DNA of 29,344 nt, taken from IMG/VR virus record IMGVR_UViG_3300003323_001383. One strand, 5' to 3'. The notes beneath the pieces were generated by a model, which had not been told where the DNA came from, did not search any database, and saw nothing but the letters and a program-made list of their open reading frames with translations. A program made the translations under genes and the position numbers. This document shows positions 28 to 12,119 of this stretch, piece by piece. This stretch comes from a virus. Each line of letters starts with the position of its first letter. The first letter of the stretch is position 1.

Positions 28-405
28 TCACGACTCCATGACCGCGAGGAGGAGCTCCAGCCTCCTCATTTTCTCGGACGAGAGGGCGTCCAGTATGGCC
101 TCCTCCTCGATGAACGGCTCGTGCTGGGAGTCCGAGCGGAGGCGGGAAGAGACGATCTGGGCCGCCTTCTCGTCCGAGACGCGCTCGCTGACGAGGTCGT
201 AGCCGTCGTTCCCGTTCGGGGTCGGCGTCCTCCTCCACCAGGAGCCGCCCTTCCAGTCGACGCAGCTCTCGGCCGACAGGAGGCGGACGCCGAGCCTCTC
301 GGCCTCCAGGGTGAGCCACTCCCCGTCGTCGGACGGGTCGACGTGGAGCTCTATCGGGTCCGTCGAGGAGATGCCGTCCACGACGTCTATGGAGAGGATT
401 CTCAC
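28..405 (-). CDS. hypothetical protein, 125 aa, C-terminus LLLAVMES
   Basis: Complete ORF; strong G/C third-position bias in this frame; GTG start at 405 directly abuts antisense of tRNA-Glu; no domain recognised. Confidence 0.7.
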   Translation of the reverse strand: MRILSIDVVDGISSTDPIELHVDPSDDGEWLTLEAERLGVRLLSAESCVDWKGGSWWRRTPTPNGNDGYDLVSERVSDEKAAQIVSSRLRSDSQHEPFIEEEAILDALSSEKMRRLELLLAVMES

Positions 406-477
406 GGCCCGTTCTTCTAGCGGCTAGGAAGACGCCCTTTCAAGGCGTTAACGCGGGTTCGATTCCCGCACGGGTCA
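406..477 (+). tRNA. tRNA-Glu(UUC)
   Basis: Acceptor GGCCCGT/ACGGGTC (one G:U), anticodon stem ACGCC/GGCGT with loop CTTTCAA, T-arm GCGGG-TTCGATT-CCCGC; no encoded CCA. Confidence 0.85.
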
Positions 478-485
478 CAGCTTAC

Positions 486-557
486 GCCGGCTTAGCAATC
501 CAGGGAATGCACGCGCTTCGTAAGCGCGAGAGGCGGGTTCGAGTCCCGCAGCCGGCT
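486..557 (+). tRNA. tRNA-Thr(CGU)
   Basis: Acceptor GCCGGCT/AGCCGGC, anticodon stem CGCGC/GCGCG loop TTCGTAA, T-arm GCGGG-TTCGAGT-CCCGC. Confidence 0.85.
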
Positions 558-573
558 CTCTGTAATTTCGGAC

Positions 574-984
574 GTGGTCAAGTCGCTAGTGGACGAGACG
601 GAGAGGTTCCTGGACGTCATGGGGTCCTCCGGGGTGTTCGTCCTCGCCAGGATCCCCTGCCCCGACGGCGACCCCGTCGAGGTCAGGCTCATCCGGCGAA
701 AGGACGGGTCGGGGTTCGCCATGACGGTCAAGAGGGGCGAGGCGGGCCTCCTCTCGGACTACTGGCCCGCGTACGAGCACGGCTCCTGGTTCGTCAGCGA
801 CCTGACGGACAAGGACGGGAGGGTGACGACGATCCGGGGGCTCAGCCCCGAGCGTGTCGCCCAGTACGTCCACGAGGACGCGAAGAAGGCGGGGGTGGAG
901 GTCGACCGCCTAGCCCTCGCCGAGGCCATCTCCGACGAGATGATGCTCCGAATGTCGGCCGTCGCCGACGTCCTCCTGAGCTAG
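574..984 (+). CDS. hypothetical protein, 136 aa
   Basis: ORF with GC3 bias from GTG start; ends ..AVADVLLS; no domain recognised. Confidence 0.65.
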   Translation: MVKSLVDETERFLDVMGSSGVFVLARIPCPDGDPVEVRLIRRKDGSGFAMTVKRGEAGLLSDYWPAYEHGSWFVSDLTDKDGRVTTIRGLSPERVAQYVHEDAKKAGVEVDRLALAEAISDEMMLRMSAVADVLLS

Positions 985-1682
985 CACTGGTTCCAGCTCA
1001 TCCCGTGGAGGAACCCGTGCCACCCGTCGACCGCGATGGAGCCGGCGCCGGCCGCGCAGGTGTGGCCACCCTTCCCGACGTGCAGGGTCCCGTCCTCCGG
1101 GCTCCCGGAGATGACCCAGCACCGGTGGGTCTTCTCCTCCCTCATGGTGCAGTTGGACGCCCGTCCGCAGACGTCCCAGTCCACGCCGTTCGGGGTCACG
1201 CCGCGGAGGTGCCTCCCGTCGCAGTTGTCCCAGGCCCAGCAGTGGCCCGGCTCGTGCGAGTCTGACCAGTAGACGTCGCCGGGCTCCGGGCGCCCCGAGG
1301 GCGTGTCGAAGAGCTTCGACGAGGAGACCTGGCGGTTCACTATCTCCCCGGACTGGCCGACCTCCGAGGGGGTCGAGGAGGGAGGGACGGGCGCCCCGCA
1401 ATGGTCGCACTTCGTCGGCCATGCCTCTTCGGGGAAGTCGCCCTCCTCCCCGAAGGACTCCGGGACGGCCTCGGGGAACAGGTAGTCTCGGATGACGGCA
1501 GTGGCGTTGTGGCCGCCGGAGTGGCCCCGCCCGTAGGCGTTCGGGCAGGTGTTCTGGTAGTCGTACCTCGGGTGCCCCTCCGGGCACTGGTCGCACGGAG
1601 CGACGGAGCTGACGATGGCCCGGTCCCAGTAGACGCGGAGCTCGGAGCGCACGCCGACCCTTCGGATTAGCCTGGCCTTCAT
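981..1682 (-). CDS. Cys/His/Trp-rich hypothetical protein, about 233 aa
   Basis: ORF 981-1799 trimmed to first ATG (1682) because the upstream part overlaps the tRNA 5' half at 1721; many Cys/His (HCWAWDNC, HTCAAGAGS, WHGFLHG) suggest metal binding; start uncertain, no clear SD. Confidence 0.55.
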   Translation of the reverse strand: MKARLIRRVGVRSELRVYWDRAIVSSVAPCDQCPEGHPRYDYQNTCPNAYGRGHSGGHNATAVIRDYLFPEAVPESFGEEGDFPEEAWPTKCDHCGAPVPPSSTPSEVGQSGEIVNRQVSSSKLFDTPSGRPEPGDVYWSDSHEPGHCWAWDNCDGRHLRGVTPNGVDWDVCGRASNCTMREEKTHRCWVISGSPEDGTLHVGKGGHTCAAGAGSIAVDGWHGFLHGMSWNQC

Positions 1683-1720
1683 GCGGAGGCCGCCCGATAG
1701 GAGGTGTACTCTCCTCGAAT

Positions 1721-1956
1721 GACCCCGTAGCCTAGAGGAAAGGCACGGCCAAAAACGGAAGCCGCACTCGAAAGAGGGGCCGCTGGAGGGGGCGAGCACA
1801 AGACCGCACGGCGTCGCCGGGGCGGCCCTCTACTCGCCCTGACCTGGACCGAGGTTGCGGATGCACCGAATGGCACGGAGCTCCCGGGTCGCTAGGGAAG
1901 CGCGTTTCCTACATGGTCCTTTGCGGTCGACGCGGGTTCGAGTCCCGCCGGGGTCG
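1721..1956 (+). ncRNA. split tRNA-like gene: canonical 5' (acceptor + D-arm) and 3' (T-arm + acceptor) parts separated by about 180 nt
   Basis: 5' GACCCCG-TA-GCCT-AGAGGAA-AGGC (1721-1744); 3' GCGGG-TTCGAGT-CCCGC-CGGGGTC-G (1932-1956). Acceptor strands pair 7/7. No normal anticodon arm follows the D-arm. Confidence 0.5.
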
Positions 1957-1959
1957 CAG

Positions 1960-1994
1960 TCCCTCCATCGCGCGCTGGCCGCGCGGTGGAGGGA
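1960..1994 (+). terminator. 15-bp perfect stem-loop right after the split tRNA (terminator-like or processing hairpin, no U-tract)
   Basis: TCCCTCCATCGCGCG-ctggc-CGCGCGGTGGAGGGA; 14 Watson-Crick pairs + one G:U; followed by the only strongly AT-rich spacer of the array. Confidence 0.4.
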
Positions 1995-2083
1995 GTAGTA
2001 CTCGAAATAGGTCACGATCTCGTTGATCCTCACATAATTTTTAGTATCGGAAGTGCCCGAGTGGTCGGTCACATTTTTGTCAC

Positions 2084-2157
2084 GGCCAGGTAGCTCAGTT
2101 GGAAGAGCGGTGCACTGAAAATGCACGCGTCGCGGGTTCGACTCCCGCCCTGCGCCA
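2084..2157 (+). tRNA. tRNA-Phe(GAA) with irregular acceptor stem
   Basis: D-arm TAGCTCAGTTGGAAGAGC, anticodon stem GTGCA/TGCAC loop CTGAAAA, T-arm GCGGG-TTCGACT-CCCGC. Acceptor GGCCAGG pairs with CCTG(C)GCC only if one C is bulged; A73. Confidence 0.7.
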
Positions 2158-2196
2158 CAGGGTGCCGGTGCCCTTCCGAAAGGAGAAGCCGGCTAT

Positions 2197-2279
2197 GCTC
2201 AGGTGGTGGAATGGCAGTCACGCCGGCTTGAGGTGCCGGTGACGGAAACGTCGTGCGGGTTCGACTCCCGCCCTGAGCA
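2197..2279 (+). tRNA. tRNA-Leu(GAG)
   Basis: Acceptor GCTCAGG/CCTGAGC, loop TTGAGGT, long variable arm, T-arm GCGGG-TTCGACT-CCCGC. Confidence 0.85.
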
Positions 2280-2284
2280 CTCTT

Positions 2285-2368
2285 GCCGAGGTGGTGGAAC
2301 TGGCAGTCACGCTGCGTTCAGACCGCAGTGCCCGAAAGGGCGTGGAGGTTCGACTCCTCTCCTCGGCA
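2285..2368 (+). tRNA. tRNA-Leu(CAG)
   Basis: Acceptor GCCGAGG/CCTCGGC, anticodon stem CTGCG/CGCAG loop TTCAGAC, long variable arm, T-loop TTCGACT. Confidence 0.85.
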
Positions 2369-2374
2369 CGAACT

Positions 2375-2448
2375 GGAGGTTGACTGGGACGGTTAGACCT
2401 GGCTGCCCTGATAAGGCAGTAGACCGAGTTCGATTCTCGGAGCCTCCA
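2375..2448 (+). tRNA. tRNA-Ile(GAU)
   Basis: Acceptor GGAGGTT/AGCCTCC, anticodon stem CTGCC/GGCAG loop CTGATAA, T-arm CCGAG-TTCGATT-CTCGG; followed by CCA, which overlaps the next tRNA. Confidence 0.8.
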
Positions 2449-2449
2449 C

Positions 2450-2521
2450 CAGGGATAAGGCTCAAGGTGGGCCGCCGGCTTGGGGTGTCGGTGCAGGCGG
2501 GTTCGATTCCCGCATCCCTGA
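2450..2521 (+). tRNA. tRNA-Pro(GGG)
   Basis: C1:G72 acceptor CAGGGAT/ATCCCTG, loop TTGGGGT, T-arm GCGGG-TTCGATT-CCCGC. Confidence 0.8.
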
Positions 2522-2525
2522 CGAC

Positions 2526-2758: not shown

Positions 2759-2821
2759 GAGGTCGCGCCCAGCGAAGGGCGGTCACACAAGCAAATGGAG
2801 GTTCGAGTCCTCCCGTCCCCA
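2759..2821 (+). pseudogene. tRNA-like remnant lacking a D-arm
   Basis: Good T-arm GGAGG-TTCGAGT-CCTCC and 3' acceptor CGTCCCC-A. The 5' strand GAGGTCG pairs only 5/7 and a single hairpin CGCCC-agcgaa-GGGCG replaces the D and anticodon arms. Confidence 0.3.
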
Positions 2822-2895
2822 CGAGCCCGCGAGGGCCACCCACGGGGATGTAGCCGAAATGGAATAGGCAACGATATTGAAAATCGTCAACATAT

Positions 2896-2913
2896 CCCGA
2901 TCCCCACATCGGG
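2896..2913 (-). terminator. stem-loop downstream of the sigma-factor gene
   Basis: CCCGAT-ccccac-ATCGGG, 15 nt past the stop at 2928; followed on the minus strand by an AT-rich tract (atatgttgacgattttc). Confidence 0.35.
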
Positions 2914-2927
2914 CGCGACCCAGCTCT

Positions 2928-3497
2928 TTAGAGGACGAAGTCCTCCGCCAGGGCCTCCCGCAGGCGCGAGATGGTCCGGGCGTGTATCTGCGAGATGCGG
3001 GGCTCGGACACGCCGAGCTCGGCCGCTATGGAGCGATAGTCCACGCCGTGGACGTGGTGGGAGACGAAGATGTGGCGCTCGCGCCACGGGAGGAGGTCGA
3101 CGAGTTCCCAGACCTTCGACAGGGCGAGGGCCGCCGCGGTCCTTGCCTCGACGTCGTCGCCCGACATTGCGTCCTCGAGCGACCTGTGCCCGGAGTCGAC
3201 GAGGACGTGGACCGCCCTGTCCGGGTCGCCCTTGGCCCTCATGCGGTGGTGCCTCGGCATCCAGTCCTTCGTCCGCAGGTCGTCCTTTATGGCGCCGCGG
3301 ATCCTTATCCTCGCGTAGGCCCCGAAGTTCTCGCAGTCGGGGTGGAGGCGCGCCGCGTCCCAGAGGCCGGACATCGCGGCCGCGTGGAGGTCGTCGTACA
3401 TGATGTGCGCCGGAAGGCGCCGCTTGAACCCGAGCGCGATGCTGCGGGCGAGGTGTGCGTGGTCCTTCATGAGGATCGAGACGCGATACTCGTTCAC
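2928..3497 (-). CDS. sigma-70 family RNA polymerase sigma factor (FliA/group 3-4-like), 189 aa
   Basis: Region 2 motif YARIRIRGAIKDDLR and region 4.2 helix-turn-helix IAAELGVSEPRISQIHARTISRLRE; GTG start. Confidence 0.85.
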   Translation of the reverse strand: MNEYRVSILMKDHAHLARSIALGFKRRLPAHIMYDDLHAAAMSGLWDAARLHPDCENFGAYARIRIRGAIKDDLRTKDWMPRHHRMRAKGDPDRAVHVLVDSGHRSLEDAMSGDDVEARTAAALALSKVWELVDLLPWRERHIFVSHHVHGVDYRSIAAELGVSEPRISQIHARTISRLREALAEDFVL

Positions 3498-4705: not shown

Positions 4706-6730
4706 ATGAACAACGAGAGCATGGGGGCGGCCGAGACCATCGTCCAGTCCCTTCTGTCCCACGCGGACCACATGTACCACAACCGTCCCGGCGTCGTCGT
4801 CGCGGACGCCCGCTTCAAGGTCGGGGTCCGTTGGGAGTACGTGACGCACCGCGAGAAGTGCCGGACCCACGAGGACGACCCGGTGAGGCCGGAGAAGGAC
4901 GCCGAGGGCAAGAAGACCGGCCGCCTGCTCTGCTCCAAGTGCCAGTCTGACGTCCGGGGGAACGGCCACAGGATCGTCTACCGGAAGGTCAAGGTCGGCA
5001 AGAAGGAGGAGGAGCAGAAGGTGGGCTACCTCGGCCCCGACGGGAAGGACGTCCTCGGCCCGAACGGGCAGAAGGTCGCCGAGTACCGCGAGGCCGGCGT
5101 CTTCCCCGAGATCGCCGTCTGGATGTACGAGCAGGTCGCGAAGGTCTGGGAGCTCGACAACGAGTTCGCCGCCCGCTGGGCGTCGCACGCGTTCGGCGAG
5201 GACCACAAGGACCGGGCCGTGATCATGGCGGCCTTCATGCTCGTCCAGTCCCGCAAGGGGGACCCCGTCCGCGAGGACGGCAAGGTCCTGTTCCACGACG
5301 ACGACTTCCGGGACGTCGGCGAGGCCATGGTCCTGCACCTGAAGGACAAGAGGAAGAAGGACGAGCGCGAGATCTCCCCGCGCATGCTCCTGCGCATTCA
5401 CGAGGTCCTGTCGCTCGACGGGATCGCGGCGGTCAACCGGCGCCTCGGCTTCGGGGTCTCCGCCCGCAGGCCGCCCTTGGGCCGCTGGGCGAAGGCCGTC
5501 GAGAAGTGGCTCCTCTACCGGGAGGAGAACCCGAAGATGCTGGAGGGCCTGGTCAAGTCCGGGCAGAAGTCGACCGTCGTCGAGCTCTGCAAGCGCGTCG
5601 GGTACAAGCCCGCCTCGCCCAGGTTCTTCGAGATCCTCGGCGTCCGGCAGAAGCAGGCGCCGGACGGCAGGCGCACGGTCGCCATCGGCCTCGACATCAG
5701 GTCCGGCGGCTCGTGGGAGGGCATGAGCGAGGAGCAGATCTGCGAGGCGATCGTCAGGGACAAGGTCGGCTACAAGCGGGTGGCCGGCATGGTCCCCAGG
5801 TCCGTCGGCGTCACCCGCGCCGTCATGGCCGCGACGATCGAGGCCGGGGGCGTCTCCGACAAGGAGATGATCATCCTCATGCCGACCCTCGAGGAGCTCG
5901 GGCTCCTGGACGTCCCCTCCGTCAAGGAGAGGATCGAGCGCGCCGTCAAGGGCGCGGACGACATGCGCGCCGCGAACGTCGCGGCCCGGATGCGCTCCCA
6001 GGAGGCGAAGGAGAAGCTCCAGGAGGCCTCGGACAACGCCCTGAAGAAGGCGGTCGAGGAGGTCATGAAGGACATGCGCGCGTACATCCTAGTCGACAAG
6101 TCGGGCTCCATGGAGGGCGCGATCGAGGCGGCGAAGGGATGCGTGACGAAGTTCCTCCAGGGCTTTCCGCCCGAGCGGGTCCACGTGGCGTACTTCGACG
6201 CCGTCGGCCGCGAGGTCAGGATCCCGCACCCGTCCGCGGCCGGGGTCGCCAAGGCCTTCTCCGGCATCACGGCCGGAGGCGGGACCAACTACGGCCAGGG
6301 CGTCCTCGCCCTGAGGGACCACGTCCCGAAGGACGAGGAGGACGTCGTCATGATCTTCATCGGCGACGAGGGCCACGGGATCGGCCGGCTCATCAGGCTC
6401 GGCGAGGGCGACCACCCGTCGTTCGCCGCCGACGTCCAGAGGTCCGGCCTGCGGCCGATGGCGTTCGGGCTCATCCCGATCGTCTCGAAGAACCCGCAGT
6501 TCCCGCGCGGCAACTCCGTCCGGAAGACGGCCGCCGAGCTCGGGATCCCCTGCTTCGAGATCGGCGAGGAGACCTTCGCCGACCCCTACGCCATCCCGAG
6601 GACGATCAGGAACATCATCGCGGCGACCCCGGTCACCGCGAGGGCGACGGCCGCCCCGGTCCGGCGGCAGACCCTGGTCGAGGTCATCATGAAGACCGAG
6701 CTCCTCCGGAAGCCCGCTTGGGCAGCCTGA
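4706..6730 (+). CDS. von Willebrand factor A (vWA) domain protein with long helical N-terminal region, possibly TROVE/Ro60-like, 674 aa
   Basis: SD AAGGAG 8 nt upstream. MIDAS DxSxS in ILVDKSGSMEG, then ITAGGGTNYG and VVMIFIGDEGH (vWA). N-terminal GRWAKAVEKWL...KP and C-terminal FADPYAIPRTIRNI recall Ro60 by eye only. Confidence 0.8.
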   Translation: MNNESMGAAETIVQSLLSHADHMYHNRPGVVVADARFKVGVRWEYVTHREKCRTHEDDPVRPEKDAEGKKTGRLLCSKCQSDVRGNGHRIVYRKVKVGKKEEEQKVGYLGPDGKDVLGPNGQKVAEYREAGVFPEIAVWMYEQVAKVWELDNEFAARWASHAFGEDHKDRAVIMAAFMLVQSRKGDPVREDGKVLFHDDDFRDVGEAMVLHLKDKRKKDEREISPRMLLRIHEVLSLDGIAAVNRRLGFGVSARRPPLGRWAKAVEKWLLYREENPKMLEGLVKSGQKSTVVELCKRVGYKPASPRFFEILGVRQKQAPDGRRTVAIGLDIRSGGSWEGMSEEQICEAIVRDKVGYKRVAGMVPRSVGVTRAVMAATIEAGGVSDKEMIILMPTLEELGLLDVPSVKERIERAVKGADDMRAANVAARMRSQEAKEKLQEASDNALKKAVEEVMKDMRAYILVDKSGSMEGAIEAAKGCVTKFLQGFPPERVHVAYFDAVGREVRIPHPSAAGVAKAFSGITAGGGTNYGQGVLALRDHVPKDEEDVVMIFIGDEGHGIGRLIRLGEGDHPSFAADVQRSGLRPMAFGLIPIVSKNPQFPRGNSVRKTAAELGIPCFEIGEETFADPYAIPRTIRNIIAATPVTARATAAPVRRQTLVEVIMKTELLRKPAWAA

Positions 6731-6738
6731 GGCGCACG

Positions 6739-7095
6739 ATGTCGAGGAGGATGGGGCGGGAGCCCCTCCCCTCCCCGGTGTCGCACCGGTCCTACCTCGC
6801 CAGCCCGGCGTTCGGGCTGGCAAGGTCGGGCCGCAGCATCTTCTCGGTCCCGAAGAGGGGGCCGCTCTTCTACGCCGACTTCGAGGCGACGGAGCTCCGG
6901 ATGATGGCCTCCCTGGGCCTCTTCAGGTTCCCGTGCCCCGCCTGCGGAGACCCGCTCCTGGCGAGCGCCCGCTCCGGACGGAGGTCGATGGGGTACCCGC
7001 ACGACCTTGCCGGAAGCCAGGACGACATCCTCGTCCAGCACGCCCTGAAGAAGGGGGACCCCGAGCACGGCGTCCTCCTCGTCATGACGGCGTAG
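6739..7095 (+). CDS. hypothetical protein, 118 aa, C-terminus VLLVMTA
   Basis: GC3-biased frame starting at ATG 6739; contains FYADFEATELRMMA (resembles family-A polymerase motif A) and CPACG. Confidence 0.6.
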   Translation: MSRRMGREPLPSPVSHRSYLASPAFGLARSGRSIFSVPKRGPLFYADFEATELRMMASLGLFRFPCPACGDPLLASARSGRRSMGYPHDLAGSQDDILVQHALKKGDPEHGVLLVMTA

Positions 7096-11552: not shown

Positions 11553-11682
11553 GGGGTTCAAGGAGACTGGGTCTCCACCAATCGGTAAAATTGGCAAATC
11601 ACCCAGAGTCGGCAATCGGGCCAGCGATGGCCCTCCCGAACGGCTCTCACAAGCAAGCTAGGTTCGATTCCTAGGGACCCCA
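11553..11682 (+). ncRNA. 130-nt tRNA-shaped RNA with 63-nt insertion at variable-loop position (copy 1, anticodon-loop CGGTAAA)
   Basis: Acceptor GGGGTTC/GGACCCC, D-arm GGAG-ACTGGGT-CTCC, anticodon arm CCAAT-CGGTAAA-ATTGG (GUA, but G33), T-arm CTAGG-TTCGATT-CCTAG. Insertion shares blocks with copies 2 and 3. Confidence 0.6.
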
Positions 11683-11717: not shown

Positions 11718-11851
11718 GCCCCGTAAGAGGTCTGGGTACCTCATTTCCCTTCCACGGAAACACACAACACCCCAGGCTAGCCAATCGACCCCTCGCGGGG
11801 TCACCAGGCACAGTCTCACATGCATGGATGGTTCGATTCCATCACGGGGCT
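11718..11851 (+). ncRNA. 134-nt tRNA-shaped RNA with 66-nt insertion (copy 2, anticodon UCC)
   Basis: Acceptor GCCCCGT/ACGGGGC, D-arm GAGG-TCTGGGTA-CCTC, anticodon arm TTTCC-CTTCCAC-GGAAA, T-arm GATGG-TTCGATT-CCATC, then T-CCA. Confidence 0.6.
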
Positions 11852-11880: not shown

Positions 11881-11952
11881 ATGCAATTAGCTCAAAGGTA
11901 GAGCGTCGGCCTACTAAGCCGGATGTTGCGGCCTCGAAAACCGCATTGCAAT
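11881..11952 (+). tRNA. aberrant class-I tRNA, anticodon ACU, imperfect T-arm (undetermined identity or pseudogene)
   Basis: D-arm TAGCTCAAAGGTAGAGC, anticodon stem TCGGC/GCCGG loop CTACTAA, T-arm GCGGC-CTCGAAA-ACCGC (C:A at 53:61, C54), acceptor ATGCAAT/ATTGCAA (A:A at 1:72); AT-richer than its neighbours. Confidence 0.4.
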
Positions 11953-11991: not shown

Positions 11992-12119
11992 GCCCGAAGT
12001 CGGGGTCTGGGACCCCACCAGTTTTTGGAACTGACAAACCCAGCGTCGCGCATCGACCCCCGTGAGAGGGTCAGCAAAGCGGCTCTCACAAGCTTCCGGT
12101 TCGAATCCGGATTCGGGCG
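11992..12119 (+). ncRNA. 128-nt tRNA-shaped RNA with 60-nt insertion (copy 3, anticodon UUG)
   Basis: Acceptor GCCCGAA/TTCGGGC, D-arm GGGG-TCTGGGA-CCCC, anticodon arm CCAGT-TTTTGGA-ACTGA, T-arm TCCGG-TTCGAAT-CCGGA. Insertion ends in CGGCTCTCACAAGC, identical to copy 1. Confidence 0.6.

What the first reader, a model, noticed from the sequence alone, without database searches (positions are those of the whole stretch)
1721..1956. tRNA gene split by an insertion of about 180 nt (intron-like or hybrid tRNA-structured RNA)
A textbook tRNA 5' part, GACCCCG-TA-GCCT-AGAGGAA-AGGC (1721-1744), and a textbook 3' part, GCGGG-TTCGAGT-CCCGC-CGGGGTC-G (1932-1956), have perfectly complementary acceptor strands. 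They are separated by GC-rich sequence with no normal anticodon arm next to the D-arm. One possible reading: CCGCA-CTCGAAA at 1762-1773 is complementary to TGCGG at 1922-1926. That would give an anticodon arm (anticodon CGA) if about 148 nt (1774-1921) were removed between positions 38 and 39. It still leaves 16 unexplained nt after the D-arm. The element is followed at once by a 15-bp perfect hairpin (1960-1994). It could be an intron-containing tRNA, a tRNA fused to a structured RNA domain, or a tmRNA- or Y-RNA-like hybrid.
Basis: seen in the sequence. Interest (0 to 1): 0.7.

Follow-up and report, generated by a model that had tools for sequence, protein, structure and literature searches.

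The report
tRNA-shaped phage RNA, probable Y RNA
The "split tRNA" is a conserved phage gene for a tRNA-shaped non-coding RNA that carries an almost invariant three-hairpin domain where the variable arm would be. It occurs in phages that also encode a Ro60-type RNA-binding protein, so it is most likely an undescribed form of Y RNA, not a tRNA with an intron.

Summary
Positions 1721-1956 hold a 7-bp acceptor stem, a D-arm and a T-arm separated by 187 nt, and ARAGORN and Rfam call no tRNA there.

The intron reading fails. The "insert" is the best-conserved part of a gene family. I found 12 further copies: the closest relative phage (84% identical, at a different place in its tRNA array), five metagenomic contigs with 42-69% GC, and six cultured Streptomyces phages (Alone3, LuckySocke, GiJojo, pSt2308, Kela, JustBecause). 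In the cultured phages examined the copy lies in an unannotated gap of a tRNA array, except LuckySocke.

All copies share these parts:
- a covarying acceptor stem, D-arm and T-arm;
- a 4-bp hairpin with an AAAACG loop in place of the anticodon arm;
- a covarying stem that closes an invariant ~54-nt core of three hairpins containing CCGAAUGG.

It takes other forms or is absent in homologs.

All six cultured carriers encode an annotated Ro-like RNA-binding protein, against 101 of 50,697 phage records overall. In three carriers the gene lies 2.4-2.9 kb downstream on the same strand. The window has a protein with a Ro60-like predicted fold 2.75 kb downstream.

Best reading: a new topological variant of Y RNA or tRNA mimic. 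Ro60 binding is inferred, not shown.

The parts
1721..1727 (+). Acceptor stem, 5' strand (GACCCCG)
   Evidence: Pairs 7/7 with 1949-1955. Covaries across members (GATCCCG, GCCCCTA, GAGCTCG, GCCCTTG, GCCCCCG, GCTTTCG): 63/63 cells paired, 0 of 2000 shuffles as good.
1730..1744 (+). D-arm GCCU-AGAGGAA-AGGC, with G18 G19
   Evidence: The stem covaries (GUUC/GAAC, GCUC/GAGC): 35/36 cells paired. Positions 15 and 48 covary: G15-C48 here and in Kela, Alone3 and GiJojo; A15-U48 in L176, L177 and L178 (sequences).
1746..1764 (+). Hairpin S1 in the anticodon-arm position: 4-bp stem CGGC/GCCG, 11-nt loop CAAAAACGGAA (conserved AAAACG at 1752-1757)
   Evidence: Present in all members with different stems (UCGG/CCGA, CCGG/CCGG, GCUG/CAGC, CCCG/CGGG, AGGU/ACCU): 44/44 cells paired, 0 of 2000 shuffles as good. 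It is not an anticodon loop: no 7-nt loop and no U33.
1767..1776 (+). Hairpin H2, CUC-GAAA-GAG (GNRA tetraloop).
   Evidence: Takes other forms in homologs: CUCC-CUAAACA-GGAG in L171, CC-GUAAAU-GG in L177 and L178, CU-GUAAGA-GG in L176. Absent in the Streptomyces-phage forms.
1778..1783 (+). Outer stem of the variable-arm domain, 5' strand GGCCGC (pairs with 1923-1928 GCGGUC)
   Evidence: Minimum-free-energy fold. L171 extends it by a C-G pair. L177 and L178 have an equivalent 9-bp outer stem.
1790..1839 (+). Lineage-specific hairpin GGGCGAG...CUCGCCC inside the variable-arm domain
   Evidence: Inverted repeat I1. Nearly identical in L171 and replaced by other hairpins in L174, L176, L177 and L178.
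1846..1851 (+). Stem P_in, 5' strand GGACCG (pairs with 1914-1919 UGGUCC). It closes the invariant core.
   Evidence: Flanks the core at 0-4 nt in every member, with different sequences (GCUCUC/GAGAGC, GCGGGCA/UGCUCGC, AACCUA/UAGGUU, GACAGG/CCUGUC, UACAGA/UCUGUA, GUGGUGG/CCACCAC): 58/60 cells paired, 4-5 pair types per position, 0 of 2000 shuffles as good. I chose the strands by eye.
1853..1867 (+). Core hairpin A, GGUUGC-GGAU-GCACC
   Evidence: The stem is invariant and only loop positions 1 and 4 vary (GGAU, AGAG, UGAU). The alifold fold agrees. The 5' strand differs in Kela and JustBecause.
1866..1873 (+). Invariant CCGAAUGG (linker GAAU between hairpins A and B); candidate Ro60 contact
   Evidence: Invariant in 12 of 13 members; JustBecause has CCGACUGG. 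Resembles the YrlA motif GNCGAAN0-1G and vertebrate GGUCCGA (PMC4201824) and the 'CGAA motif' used for phage phiLo Yrl RNAs (PMC12135203). Matches 7 of 8 positions of the YrlA motif.
1872..1890 (+). Core hairpin B, GGCACGG-AGCUC-CCGGGUC
   Evidence: One pair covaries in three forms: G-C (window, L171, L174, L176), U-A (L177, L178, Kela, GiJojo), A-U (L179). The loop middle is variable.
1893..1911 (+). Core hairpin C, UAGGGAA-GCGCG-UUUCCUA. CGUUU (1903-1907) may instead pair with the S1 loop AAACG (1753-1757) as a pseudoknot.
   Evidence: Hairpin predicted by alifold. Pseudoknot: L179 has AAAUGU in the S1 loop and ACAUUU in hairpin C, one compensatory event only (275 of 2000 shuffles as good). 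Inferred.
1914..1919 (+). Stem P_in, 3' strand UGGUCC
   Evidence: See 1846-1851.
1923..1928 (+). Outer stem, 3' strand GCGGUC, followed by GAC up to the T-stem (C1931 = position 48)
1932..1948 (+). T-arm GCGGG-UUCGAGU-CCCGC
   Evidence: The stem covaries (GUGGG/CCCAC, GGAAG/CUUCC, AUCGG/CCGAU, GUGGA/UCCAC): 45/45 cells paired. The loop UUCGAnU is conserved.
1949..1956 (+). Acceptor stem 3' strand CGGGGUC plus discriminator G1956; no encoded CCA
   Evidence: The discriminator varies within the family (G, A, U), even between close relatives. Only L177 encodes CCA.
1960..1994 (+). Downstream 15-bp hairpin; probably a local terminator or insulator, not part of the family
   Evidence: I2. Not conserved in L171, where the sequence after the RNA is unrelated. 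No U-tract; the terminator scan is negative.

Best explanation
Positions 1721-1956 are a gene for a stable, non-decoding, tRNA-shaped RNA.

Shown:
- It belongs to a conserved family of 154-251 nt. The 13th member, L179, is truncated at the end of the stored locus.
- Each member has a complete tRNA frame: a 7-bp acceptor stem, a D-arm with G18G19, a T-arm, and a covarying 15-48 pair.
- The anticodon arm is replaced by a 4-bp hairpin with a conserved AAAACG loop.
- The variable arm is expanded into a domain closed by a covarying stem. That domain holds three hairpins with near-invariant sequence, including CCGAAUGG.

Inferred:
- The RNA is cut out of the phage tRNA-array transcript by RNase P and the 3'-end tRNA-processing enzymes, and it receives CCA like its tRNA neighbours.
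- The S1 loop docks on hairpin C as a pseudoknot.
- The invariant domain is the binding site for a Ro60-type protein, either the phage's own or the host's Rsr.
- The RNA therefore works as a Y RNA. The Ro60-binding module would gate or tether Ro60, and the tRNA-like module would engage tRNA-recognising factors or an exoribonuclease such as PNPase. This is by analogy with the RYPER complexes described for Deinococcus and for Thermus phage phiLo.

In topology it is a circular permutation of YrlA. Here the acceptor stem is open and forms the ends of the RNA, and the putative Ro60 module is closed. In YrlA the reverse holds.
For: Conservation:
- The copy in the closest relative phage (L171 2515-2765) is 84% identical, while the flanking coding DNA is 75-80% identical.
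- That copy has a 76-nt stretch of 100% identity inside the 'insert' and sits at a different site in the tRNA array.
- Further members come from very different phages: L174, L176, L177, L178, L179 (GC 42-69%) and six cultured Streptomyces phages.

Structure:
- Covariation supports the acceptor, D, S1, P_in and T stems and a hairpin B pair in three forms.
- The Rfam tRNA model aligns the 154-nt GiJojo copy end to end at 38 bits, with large insertions.

Processing:
- L171, L177 and L178 copies start 1-2 nt after the preceding tRNA, and the L177 copy ends in ACCA.

Link to Ro60:
- All six cultured carriers have an annotated Ro-like RNA-binding protein, while only 101 of 50,697 phage records match it.
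- In Alone3, GiJojo and pSt2308 the RNA lies 2.4-2.9 kb upstream of that gene on the same strand. This matches the 'within 4 kb, same strand' rule for YrlA (PMC4201824).
- In the window, the 674-aa protein at 4706-6730, 2.75 kb downstream on the same strand, has Ro60/TROVE structures as its top Foldseek hits (E 3e-7 to 8e-6, 540-600 aligned columns).
- The invariant CCGAAUGG resembles the Ro60-contact motifs (PMC4201824, PMC12135203).
- The window also holds a YrlA-like RNA at about 2760-2925, so a Ro60/Y-RNA system is plausibly present.
Against: - There is no direct evidence of expression, processing or Ro60 binding.
- The Rfam YrlA model does not hit the element.
- The motif differs from GNCGAAN0-1G at its first position and is internal, not near the 5' end.
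- In Kela and JustBecause the Ro-like gene is 36 kb away on the other strand.
- BRock encodes a 73%-identical Ro-like protein but lacks the RNA at the syntenic Asp-Glu gap. No copy was found within 6 kb of the Ro-like gene in Atuin or VanLee; Atuin has YrlA-type RNAs there.
- No Ro-like gene lies within the few kb held around L174 and L176-L179.
- The window's 674-aa protein matches Ro60 only by fold, with TM about 0.2. It has no sequence or profile support beyond the vWA domain.
- The six cultured carriers represent only two phage lineages.
- The pseudoknot rests on one compensatory change.
Confidence: 0.55

Rival explanations
1. The same conserved tRNA-shaped RNA works with a partner other than Ro60. 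The invariant domain would bind a universally conserved host factor (ribosome, EF-Tu, an aminoacyl-tRNA synthetase, RNase, PNPase), act as a decoy for tRNA-targeting defence nucleases, or bind a small ligand. The tRNA frame would serve as a processing and stability scaffold.
For: The core is invariant across phages of 42-69% GC, which presumably infect very different hosts. Not every Ro60-encoding phage has the RNA, and adjacency to the Ro gene is not universal. The loci held around the metagenomic members show no Ro-like gene.
Against: All six cultured carriers encode a Ro-like protein against a 0.2% background. Three of them show the same-strand, under-3-kb arrangement. A CGAA-type motif sits in the invariant linker. 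No specific alternative partner is indicated by any result.
Confidence: 0.3
2. An intron-containing tRNA. A tRNA, Arg-like by its halves, is interrupted by a self-splicing or enzymatically removed intron, and a canonical tRNA is produced after excision.
For: The halves most resemble the window's tRNA-Arg genes. CCGCA-CTCGAAA and TGCGG could form an anticodon arm in this one sequence.
Against: No group I, group II or ribozyme family matches at E up to 10. The 'intron' is the most conserved part, and the tRNA-like 5' region varies more. In homologs the CTCGAAA hairpin changes shape or is absent, and no member yields a 5-bp stem with a 7-nt anticodon loop after any excision. GCCG belongs to the covarying S1 stem. 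The minimal 154-nt forms leave no room for an anticodon arm plus an intron.
Confidence: 0.03
3. A tmRNA-like RNA: a tRNA-like domain plus a short tag reading frame (GUU GCG GAU GCA CCG AAU GGC ACG GAG CUC CCG GGU CGC UAG, i.e. VADAPNGTELPGR*) used for trans-translation.
For: The topology resembles tmRNA, with ends in an acceptor stem and an internal domain. The UAG is invariant, and several variable sites fall on third codon positions (GCG/GCA/GCU, ACG/ACU/ACA). A related phage carries a normal tmRNA in its tRNA array.
Against: No member has G3:U70. A full D-arm is present. ARAGORN and the Rfam tmRNA models see only the T-arm. The 'synonymous' site in ACN covaries with the second base of codon 11 as a base pair (G-C, U-A, A-U), and the other variable sites are hairpin-loop positions. 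The other codons do not drift between 42% and 69% GC genomes. The discriminator is not conserved.
Confidence: 0.04
4. A dead tRNA gene broken by inserted DNA, for example a decayed homing-endonuclease or mobile-element remnant, as seen at L001 1886-2089.
For: Phage tRNA arrays do contain such wrecks. In L001, tRNA halves flank an HNH remnant and a nested tRNA-Ile.
Against: The family is conserved with compensatory changes in 13 sequences from diverse phages. The insert shows no codon periodicity, no protein or DNA similarity to anything else in 1.77 Mb of related loci and no repeats in the window.
Confidence: 0.02

Closest known systems
YrlA (bacterial and phage Y RNA-like RNAs; Rfam RF02553; Chen et al. 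2014, PMC4201824)
   Same: A two-module RNA with a tRNA-like module (D-arm, T-arm, acceptor stem, 15-48 covariation). It carries a CGAA-type motif and is encoded in phages with a Ro60 ortholog, often within 4 kb on the same strand and inside tRNA arrays. The M. smegmatis YrlA has a 7-bp acceptor stem that is cut by RNase P and receives CCA.
   Different: Gene order is D-arm ... T-arm with an open acceptor stem as the RNA ends, whereas YrlA runs T-arm, closed acceptor hairpin, D-arm, with its ends in the Ro60-binding stem. This element is effectively a circular permutation. The conserved domain is a three-hairpin junction in the variable-arm position. The motif is ACCGAAUG, not GNCGAAN0-1G, and is internal. 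There is no Rfam YrlA hit. The same window has a separate YrlA-like RNA at about 2760-2925.
Deinococcus radiodurans Yrn1 and Thermus phage phiLo Yrl1/Yrl2 (PMC4201824, PMC12135203)
   Same: Yrn1 has D-like and T-like arms in tRNA order. The phiLo Yrl RNAs lie upstream of the phage Ro60 gene, were found through a CGAA motif, and bind phage Ro60 and host PNPase.
   Different: In Yrn1 the Ro60-binding helix replaces the acceptor stem. Here a canonical 7-bp acceptor stem is kept. I found no sequence similarity to this family; I did not compare the phiLo Yrl sequences directly.
tmRNA
   Same: The 5' and 3' ends form a tRNA-like acceptor/T-arm domain, with a large structured domain in between. It is found in phage tRNA arrays and is processed by RNase P.
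   Different: This family has no G3:U70, has a full D-arm, shows no credible tag frame and has no pseudoknot series. The domain emerges at the variable arm and not in place of the anticodon stem.
Class II tRNAs (Ser, Leu, Tyr, Sec) and allo-tRNAs with long variable arms (PMC5389517)
   Same: A complete tRNA frame with an extra helix between the anticodon arm and the T-arm.
   Different: The variable arm is 85-165 nt with an invariant sequence. The anticodon arm is a 4-bp stem with a 10-21-nt conserved loop, so decoding is not expected.
Phage T4 stable RNAs 'species 1 and 2' encoded in its tRNA cluster (from memory, not checked here)
   Same: Non-tRNA stable RNAs embedded in a phage tRNA cluster and released by tRNA-processing enzymes; function unknown.
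   Different: No sequence comparison was made, and T4 is not known to encode Ro60.

Membership tests
YrlA / Y RNA-like (Rfam RF02553) | Match to the Rfam YrlA covariance model at or above the gathering score (69 bits) | tested here: not met
   No YrlA hit at E up to 10 on window 1600-2100 or at E up to 5 on the GiJojo and JustBecause copies. The separate element at 2796-2869 scores 15.4 bits.
YrlA / Y RNA-like (Rfam RF02553) | tRNA-like module: D-arm and T-arm with conserved tRNA nucleotides and a compensating 15-48 pair | tested here: met
   G18G19 and a UUCGAnU T-loop occur in all members. G15-C48 and A15-U48 alternate. The D and T stems covary.
YrlA / Y RNA-like (Rfam RF02553) | Topology: T-arm, closed acceptor-like stem-loop, D-arm, with the RNA ends in the Ro60-binding stem | tested here: not met
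   The order is acceptor 5' strand, D-arm, S1, variable-arm domain, T-arm, acceptor 3' strand. This is the permuted arrangement.
YrlA / Y RNA-like (Rfam RF02553) | GNCGAAN0-1G motif near the 5' end (putative Ro60 contact) | tested here: inconclusive
   An invariant ACCGAAUG at 1865-1872 matches 7 of 8 positions and contains CGAA. It is internal, between hairpins A and B (motif from PMC4201824).
YrlA / Y RNA-like (Rfam RF02553) | Encoded near a Ro60 (TROVE + vWA) gene, usually within 4 kb on the same strand | tested here: inconclusive
   Met in Alone3, GiJojo and pSt2308 (2.4-2.9 kb upstream, same strand). Kela and JustBecause encode Ro-like proteins, but 36 kb away on the other strand. In the window, a protein with a Ro60-like fold lies 2.75 kb downstream on the same strand, supported by Foldseek only, with TM about 0.2. 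The metagenomic loci are too short to judge.
YrlA / Y RNA-like (Rfam RF02553) | Physical association with Ro60/Rsr | not testable with these tools
   Needs immunoprecipitation or EMSA.
Canonical tRNA | 7-bp acceptor stem, D-arm and T-arm | tested here: met
   The Rfam tRNA model matches the GiJojo copy at 38 bits over model positions 1-71.
Canonical tRNA | 5-bp anticodon stem with a 7-nt loop (U33, purine 37) and detection by tRNA finders | tested here: not met
   S1 is a 4-bp stem with a 10-21-nt loop, (C)AAAAACGG... ARAGORN and the Rfam tRNA model do not call the window copy.
Intron-containing tRNA (group I or other) | Recognisable intron core, and a canonical tRNA after excision | tested here: not met
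   No intron or ribozyme family at E up to 10. No excision gives a canonical anticodon arm in any member. The 'intron' is the invariant part.
tmRNA | G3:U70 alanine identity pair | tested here: not met
   The pair at 3:70 is C-G, U-A or G-C in all members.
tmRNA | Tag reading frame with a resume codon and stop; detection by ARAGORN or Rfam tmRNA models | tested here: not met
   ARAGORN finds none. Rfam tmRNA matches only the T-arm at 16 bits. The variable sites of the candidate frame are explained by base pairing and loop positions.

The most novel reading that the evidence does not exclude
This is a previously undescribed class of Y RNA. [quoted passage not shown] It would be the natural circular permutation of YrlA. 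With free tRNA ends, it could be CCA-tailed, or even aminoacylated, and could deliver Ro60 or an exonuclease to tRNA-handling machinery during infection. It coexists with YrlA-type and other tRNA-like RNAs in the same phage.
Probability: 0.4. Interest if true: 0.75.

Novelty: new variant of a known kind. Interest (0 to 1): 0.62.

Why it matters
Y RNAs and their Ro60 partners are poorly understood in bacteria and phages. Only the YrlA and Yrn1 architectures are curated or described in the sources I could search.

This family shows that phages have built the same two-module design (tRNA mimic plus a CGAA-containing module) in the opposite topology, with real tRNA ends. The contrast gives a natural experiment on which features matter: open or closed acceptor stem, and where Ro60 binds.

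The family is also missed by tRNA finders, by Rfam and by the genome annotations examined. It is nonetheless present in cultured, readily grown Streptomyces phages (Alone3, LuckySocke, GiJojo, pSt2308, Kela, JustBecause), so its expression, processing and binding to the annotated Ro-like protein can be tested directly.

More broadly, the window shows that one phage can carry at least three kinds of non-decoding tRNA-derived RNAs beside about 35 tRNAs.

Tried and rejected
- **Intron or ribozyme:** an Rfam scan at E up to 10 found nothing beyond the T-arm.
- **Exceptional folding stability:** the z-score against shuffles is 0.18, which is uninformative at 67% GC.
- **Coding remnant in the insert:** six-frame translation, codon-position GC and tblastx/blastn against 1.77 Mb of related loci were all negative.
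- **Repeats or mobile-element ends:** none found in the window.
- **Exact and gapped searches with the tRNA halves in IMG/VR:** these gave nothing or a false hit spanning three tRNAs.
- **Synteny through the neighbouring 233-aa protein:** the calls were 16, 33-36, 43 and 62. About 170 loci were fetched and none had the element. They did reveal the YrlA-like RNAs and showed that the element is absent at the syntenic site in L010 and L173.
- **What worked:** the breakthrough came from closer relatives found through the 674-aa protein, then from exact searches with the invariant core.
- **Chance match:** L175 (Oscillospiraceae) is a coincidental hit in coding DNA.
- **tmRNA tag frame:** rejected because its variable sites are paired or lie in loops.
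- **Alignment:** MAFFT misaligned the 5' part of the long members. I therefore took helix strands by hand for the covariation count and built no covariance model.
- **Sequence-level Ro60 homology of the 674-aa protein:** not found. Only the fold search points to Ro60.
- **Other Ro-encoding actinophages:** BRock, Atuin and VanLee show no copy within 6 kb of the Ro-like gene.
- **Literature:** four full-text searches found no description of this family.
Full report
**1.

Window 1721-1956 contains the following:
- GACCCCG (1721-1727) and CGGGGTC (1949-1955), which are perfectly complementary;
- U8-A9;
- a D-arm, GCCU-AGAGGAA-AGGC (1730-1744);
- a T-arm, GCGGG-UUCGAGU-CCCGC (1932-1948);
- the discriminator G1956;
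- 187 nt between the D-arm and the T-arm.

ARAGORN tRNAs in the window but nothing here. Rfam at gathering thresholds tRNAs, none of them here. A permissive Rfam scan of 1600-2100 returns only the T-arm, as a 16-bit fragment of the tmRNA model. It returns no intron, ribozyme, Y RNA or riboswitch family.

I ran my own scan for an orphan T-arm whose following 7 nt pair with a 7-mer more than 95 nt upstream that is itself followed by U8 and a D-arm. Over 1.77 Mb of related phage loci, the only convincing cases were this element, its identical copy L004 and two tRNA-like cases in one other phage. The other hits have non-tRNA-like arms.

The 15-bp hairpin at 1960-1994 exists, with 14 Watson-Crick pairs and one G-U.

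**2. Context**

The window has 67% GC and belongs to a large tRNA-rich phage from a root metagenome. A 2.4-kb ENA contig is 99.96% identical to window 160-2522.

The local gene order is:
- a 233-aa cysteine-rich protein on the minus strand (981-1682; no Pfam, PHROG or NCBIfam match);
- the element;
- the hairpin;
- eight tRNAs (2084-2758);
- a second odd tRNA-like RNA (about 2760-2925);
- a sigma-70-type factor on the minus strand (2928-3497);
- tRNA-Pro and tRNA-His;
- two small ORFs;
- a 674-aa protein with a C-terminal vWA domain (4706-6730).

**3. The insert is not junk, a coding remnant or an intron**

- It has no codon periodicity.
- It has no repeats elsewhere in the window.
- It has no similarity to about 170 related loci at the DNA or translated level.
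- It has no intron signature.

**4. Homologs**

Relatives fetched through the 233-aa neighbour do not carry the element. In L010 the protein gene is followed by tRNA-Phe after 72 nt.

Closer relatives came from the 674-aa protein. L171 (NCBI JACCDR010361005.1, 80% protein identity) has the element at 2515-2765, 84% identical. It sits directly after a tRNA-Met in a different part of the tRNA array.

At the site corresponding to window 976-2083, L171 goes from the ORF to tRNA-Phe in 19 nt. The element has therefore moved as a unit.

The pairwise alignment shows that the middle of the "insert" is the best-conserved part. It has 76 consecutive identical bases, while the surrounding coding DNA is 75-80% identical. 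The acceptor stem carries a compensatory change (C3-G70 to U3-A70).

Exact searches with pieces of this invariant core found further members:
- L174, from a 424-kb viral contig, 55% GC;
- L176, from a contig binned in a Sandaracinaceae MAG;
- L177, 42% GC;
- L178, 49% GC;
- L179, from a 435-kb viral contig, with its 5' end cut off by the stored locus.

L175 is a chance match in coding DNA.

BLASTN against deposited phages found the core in six cultured Streptomyces phages: Alone3, LuckySocke, GiJojo, pSt2308, Kela and JustBecause. In the five I examined it lies in an unannotated gap between tRNA genes. In LuckySocke the match overlaps a CDS annotated as a hypothetical protein. These copies are the shortest, at 154-169 nt.

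**5. Anatomy of the family** (sequences; window coordinates)

Every member has these parts, in this order:
- a 7-bp acceptor stem;
- two bases;
- a 4-bp D-stem with a GG-containing loop;
- one purine;
- a 4-bp hairpin (S1) whose 10-21-nt loop contains AAAACG;
- a stem (P_in) within 0-4 nt of each side of a core that reads GGUUGC-NGAN-GCACC GAAU GGCACNG-AGNNC-CN'GGGUC GC UAGGGAA-GCGCG-UU..;
- 3-15 nt;
- a T-arm;
- the acceptor 3' strand.

The longer members add three things: a small hairpin after S1 (H2, which is CUC-GAAA-GAG in the window), an outer stem, and lineage-specific hairpins.

Covariation counts are:

| Helix | Cells paired | Shuffles (of 2000) reaching this |
|---|---|---|
| Acceptor | 63/63 | 0 |
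| D | 35/36 | 9 |
| S1 | 44/44 | 0 |
| P_in | 58/60 | 0 |
| T | 45/45 | 1 |

Each of these helices has two to five pair types at nearly every position. I picked the strands by eye, which favours P_in somewhat, but its position next to the core is fixed.

- Inside the core only a few positions vary.
- One pair in hairpin B takes three Watson-Crick forms: G-C, U-A and A-U.
- The other variable positions are loop positions.
- Positions 15 and 48 change together: G-C in four members and A-U in three.
- This pattern argues for a true L-shaped tRNA fold.
- The Rfam tRNA model aligns the GiJojo copy end to end at 38 bits, with the extra sequence treated as insertions.

A pseudoknot between the S1 loop (AAACG) and CGUUU of hairpin C is suggested by L179, which has AAAUGU and ACAUUU at those places. 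This is a single event and remains an inference.

**6.

- GCCG (1761-1764) belongs to S1.
- CTCGAAA is the H2 hairpin with a GNRA tetraloop. H2 has other sequences in L171, L174, L176, L177 and L178, and it is absent in the Streptomyces-phage forms.
- The "unexplained 16 nt" are the conserved S1 loop.
- No excision yields a canonical anticodon arm in any member.
- The discriminator base varies (G, A, U), even between close relatives, and no member has G3:U70. A fixed aminoacylation identity is therefore unlikely.
- The frame ending at the invariant UAG (VADAPNGTELPGR*) looked interesting because some variable sites are third codon positions. Those sites are explained by the hairpin B base pair and by loop positions, and the remaining codons do not drift between genomes of 42% and 69% GC. 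The tmRNA-like reading is rejected.

**7. What it probably does**

The copies in L171, L177 and L178 begin 1-2 nt after the preceding tRNA, and the L177 copy ends in ACCA. Release by RNase P and the 3'-end tRNA-processing enzymes, followed by CCA addition, is therefore the natural expectation. This is inferred.

The best clue to the partner is co-occurrence.
- A tblastn search with the Alone3 "Ro-like RNA binding protein" hits 101 of 50,697 phage records. All six cultured carriers of the RNA are among them.
- In Alone3, GiJojo and pSt2308 the RNA lies 2.4-2.9 kb upstream of that gene on the same strand. This is the arrangement reported for YrlA RNAs (PMC4201824).
- In Kela and JustBecause the gene is 36 kb away.

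In the window, an AlphaFold model of the 674-aa protein was built (mean pLDDT 77).
- Its top PDB matches are Ro60/TROVE structures: 9kop, 9nfa, 1yvr, 1yvp, 2i91 and the phage phiLo Ro60, 9l5y.
- E-values run from 3e-7 to 8e-6 over 540-600 aligned columns.
- TM-scores are only about 0.2.
- Sequence and profile comparisons support only the vWA domain.
- This protein is therefore a candidate Ro60, not an established one.

The invariant linker CCGAAUGG resembles three known motifs. One is the YrlA motif GNCGAAN0-1G. Another is the vertebrate Ro60 contact GGUCCGA (PMC4201824). The third is the "CGAA motif" used to find the phiLo Yrl RNAs, which bind phage Ro60 and host PNPase (PMC12135203).

I therefore read the element as a Y RNA in which the tRNA-like module keeps open tRNA ends and the Ro60 module is closed. 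This is a circular permutation of YrlA.

Several results count against this reading:
- Rfam YrlA does not match.
- BRock encodes Ro60 but lacks the RNA.
- No copy lies within 6 kb of the Ro-like gene in Atuin or VanLee; Atuin carries YrlA-type RNAs there.
- The short metagenomic loci show no Ro gene.
- The cultured carriers form only two lineages.

**8. Known or new**

No Rfam 15 family matches. The GenBank records of the cultured phages examined do not annotate it as an RNA. Four full-text searches found no description.

It is best filed as a new variant of a known kind, namely tRNA-mimicking Y-RNA-like RNAs of Ro60-encoding phages. The reservation is that the Ro60 link is inferred.

I am about 0.9 confident that it is a functional, conserved tRNA-shaped non-coding RNA. 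I am about 0.55 confident in the whole statement, including the Ro60 partnership.

Noticed in passing
window 2760-2925 (+): A YrlA-like, circularly permuted tRNA-like RNA. It has a terminal stem GUCGCGCCC/GGGCGCGAC, a CAGCGAAGG motif, a T-arm (2797-2813), a closed 7-bp acceptor hairpin (CGUCCCC...GGGGAUG), a D-arm and an anticodon-like hairpin. Rfam YrlA scores it at only 15.4 bits. Homologs occur in L171 (86% identical), L173, L009 and Rctr197k (L003, YrlA 24.5 bits), and the acceptor stems covary.
   Followed up: partly
window 11553-11682, 11718-11851, 11993-12118 (+): Three tandem tRNA-like RNAs of about 130 nt. Each has a 7-bp acceptor stem, a 5-6-bp D-stem with a 4-nt loop, an anticodon-like arm, a variable region of about 60 nt ending in CUCACAAGC, and a T-arm. 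ARAGORN calls none of them, and the third hits Rfam tRNA-Sec at 23 bits. They are conserved at 80-92% in L171, L172 and L009.
   Followed up: partly
window 4706-6730 (+): A 674-aa protein with a vWA domain. Its predicted structure has Ro60/TROVE structures as top PDB matches, with long alignments but TM about 0.2. It has an extra N-terminal beta domain and no sequence-level link to Ro60. More than 1600 homologs exist in metagenomes, and Rctr197k is the only deposited phage that has it.
   Followed up: partly
L001 1886-2089 (IMGVR_UViG_3300050821_006280): A genuinely broken tRNA. An acceptor 5' strand plus D-arm and a T-arm plus acceptor 3' strand flank the C-terminal remnant of an HNH endonuclease (..KCDLVCANCHRERTF) and a nested intact tRNA-Ile(gat). 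This looks like a scar of homing-endonuclease traffic in a tRNA array.
   Followed up: partly
window 976-2083 compared with L171 6897-6916: The 233-aa gene, the RNA and the hairpin form a 1.1-kb block that is absent at the corresponding site of the closest relative. That relative carries the RNA elsewhere, after tRNA-Met at 2437-2513. tRNA-array content is therefore being reshuffled between close relatives.
   Followed up: partly
window 981-1682 (-): A 233-aa cysteine- and histidine-rich protein with no match in any domain library but more than 1400 homologs in large-phage contigs. Its invariant residues include several Cys, His and Trp and a C-terminal TCAAGAGSI motif. Function unknown.
   Followed up: partly
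window 11881-11952 (+) and 6959-7044 (-): Rfam calls a tRNA at 11881-11952 (50 bits) that ARAGORN misses; its T-loop is CUCGAAA. ARAGORN calls an 86-nt tRNA-Gly(tcc) on the minus strand at 6959-7044 that Rfam does not call, so it is possibly spurious.
   Followed up: no
window 1700-1722 and 1991-2010: A repeated motif, GGAG(G)TGTACTC ... CTCGAA(A/T), lies just upstream of the RNA and again just after the hairpin. GTACT is also seen upstream of the 233-aa gene in L009 and L010. It may be a phage promoter or processing signal. No sigma-70 consensus promoter was found.
   Followed up: no
L181 1268-1440, L182 174-245 and L187 3458-3618 (Alone3, GiJojo, BRock): A conserved segment of about 70-170 nt (..GGGAGUACCGCU..GGCAAAC..AGUAGGCACAAGGGAUGAGACC..) precedes the RNA in Alone3 and GiJojo. 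In BRock it is present although the RNA itself is absent. It may be another small RNA.
   Followed up: no
L188 7895-8340 (Arthrobacter phage Atuin): Two unannotated YrlA-type modules (T-arm, closed acceptor hairpin, D-arm) lie just downstream of the annotated Ro-like gene.
   Followed up: no
L010 7482-9689 (-): A 735-aa protein with a Cas12f1-like TNB domain is encoded in a related tRNA-rich phage contig.
   Followed up: no
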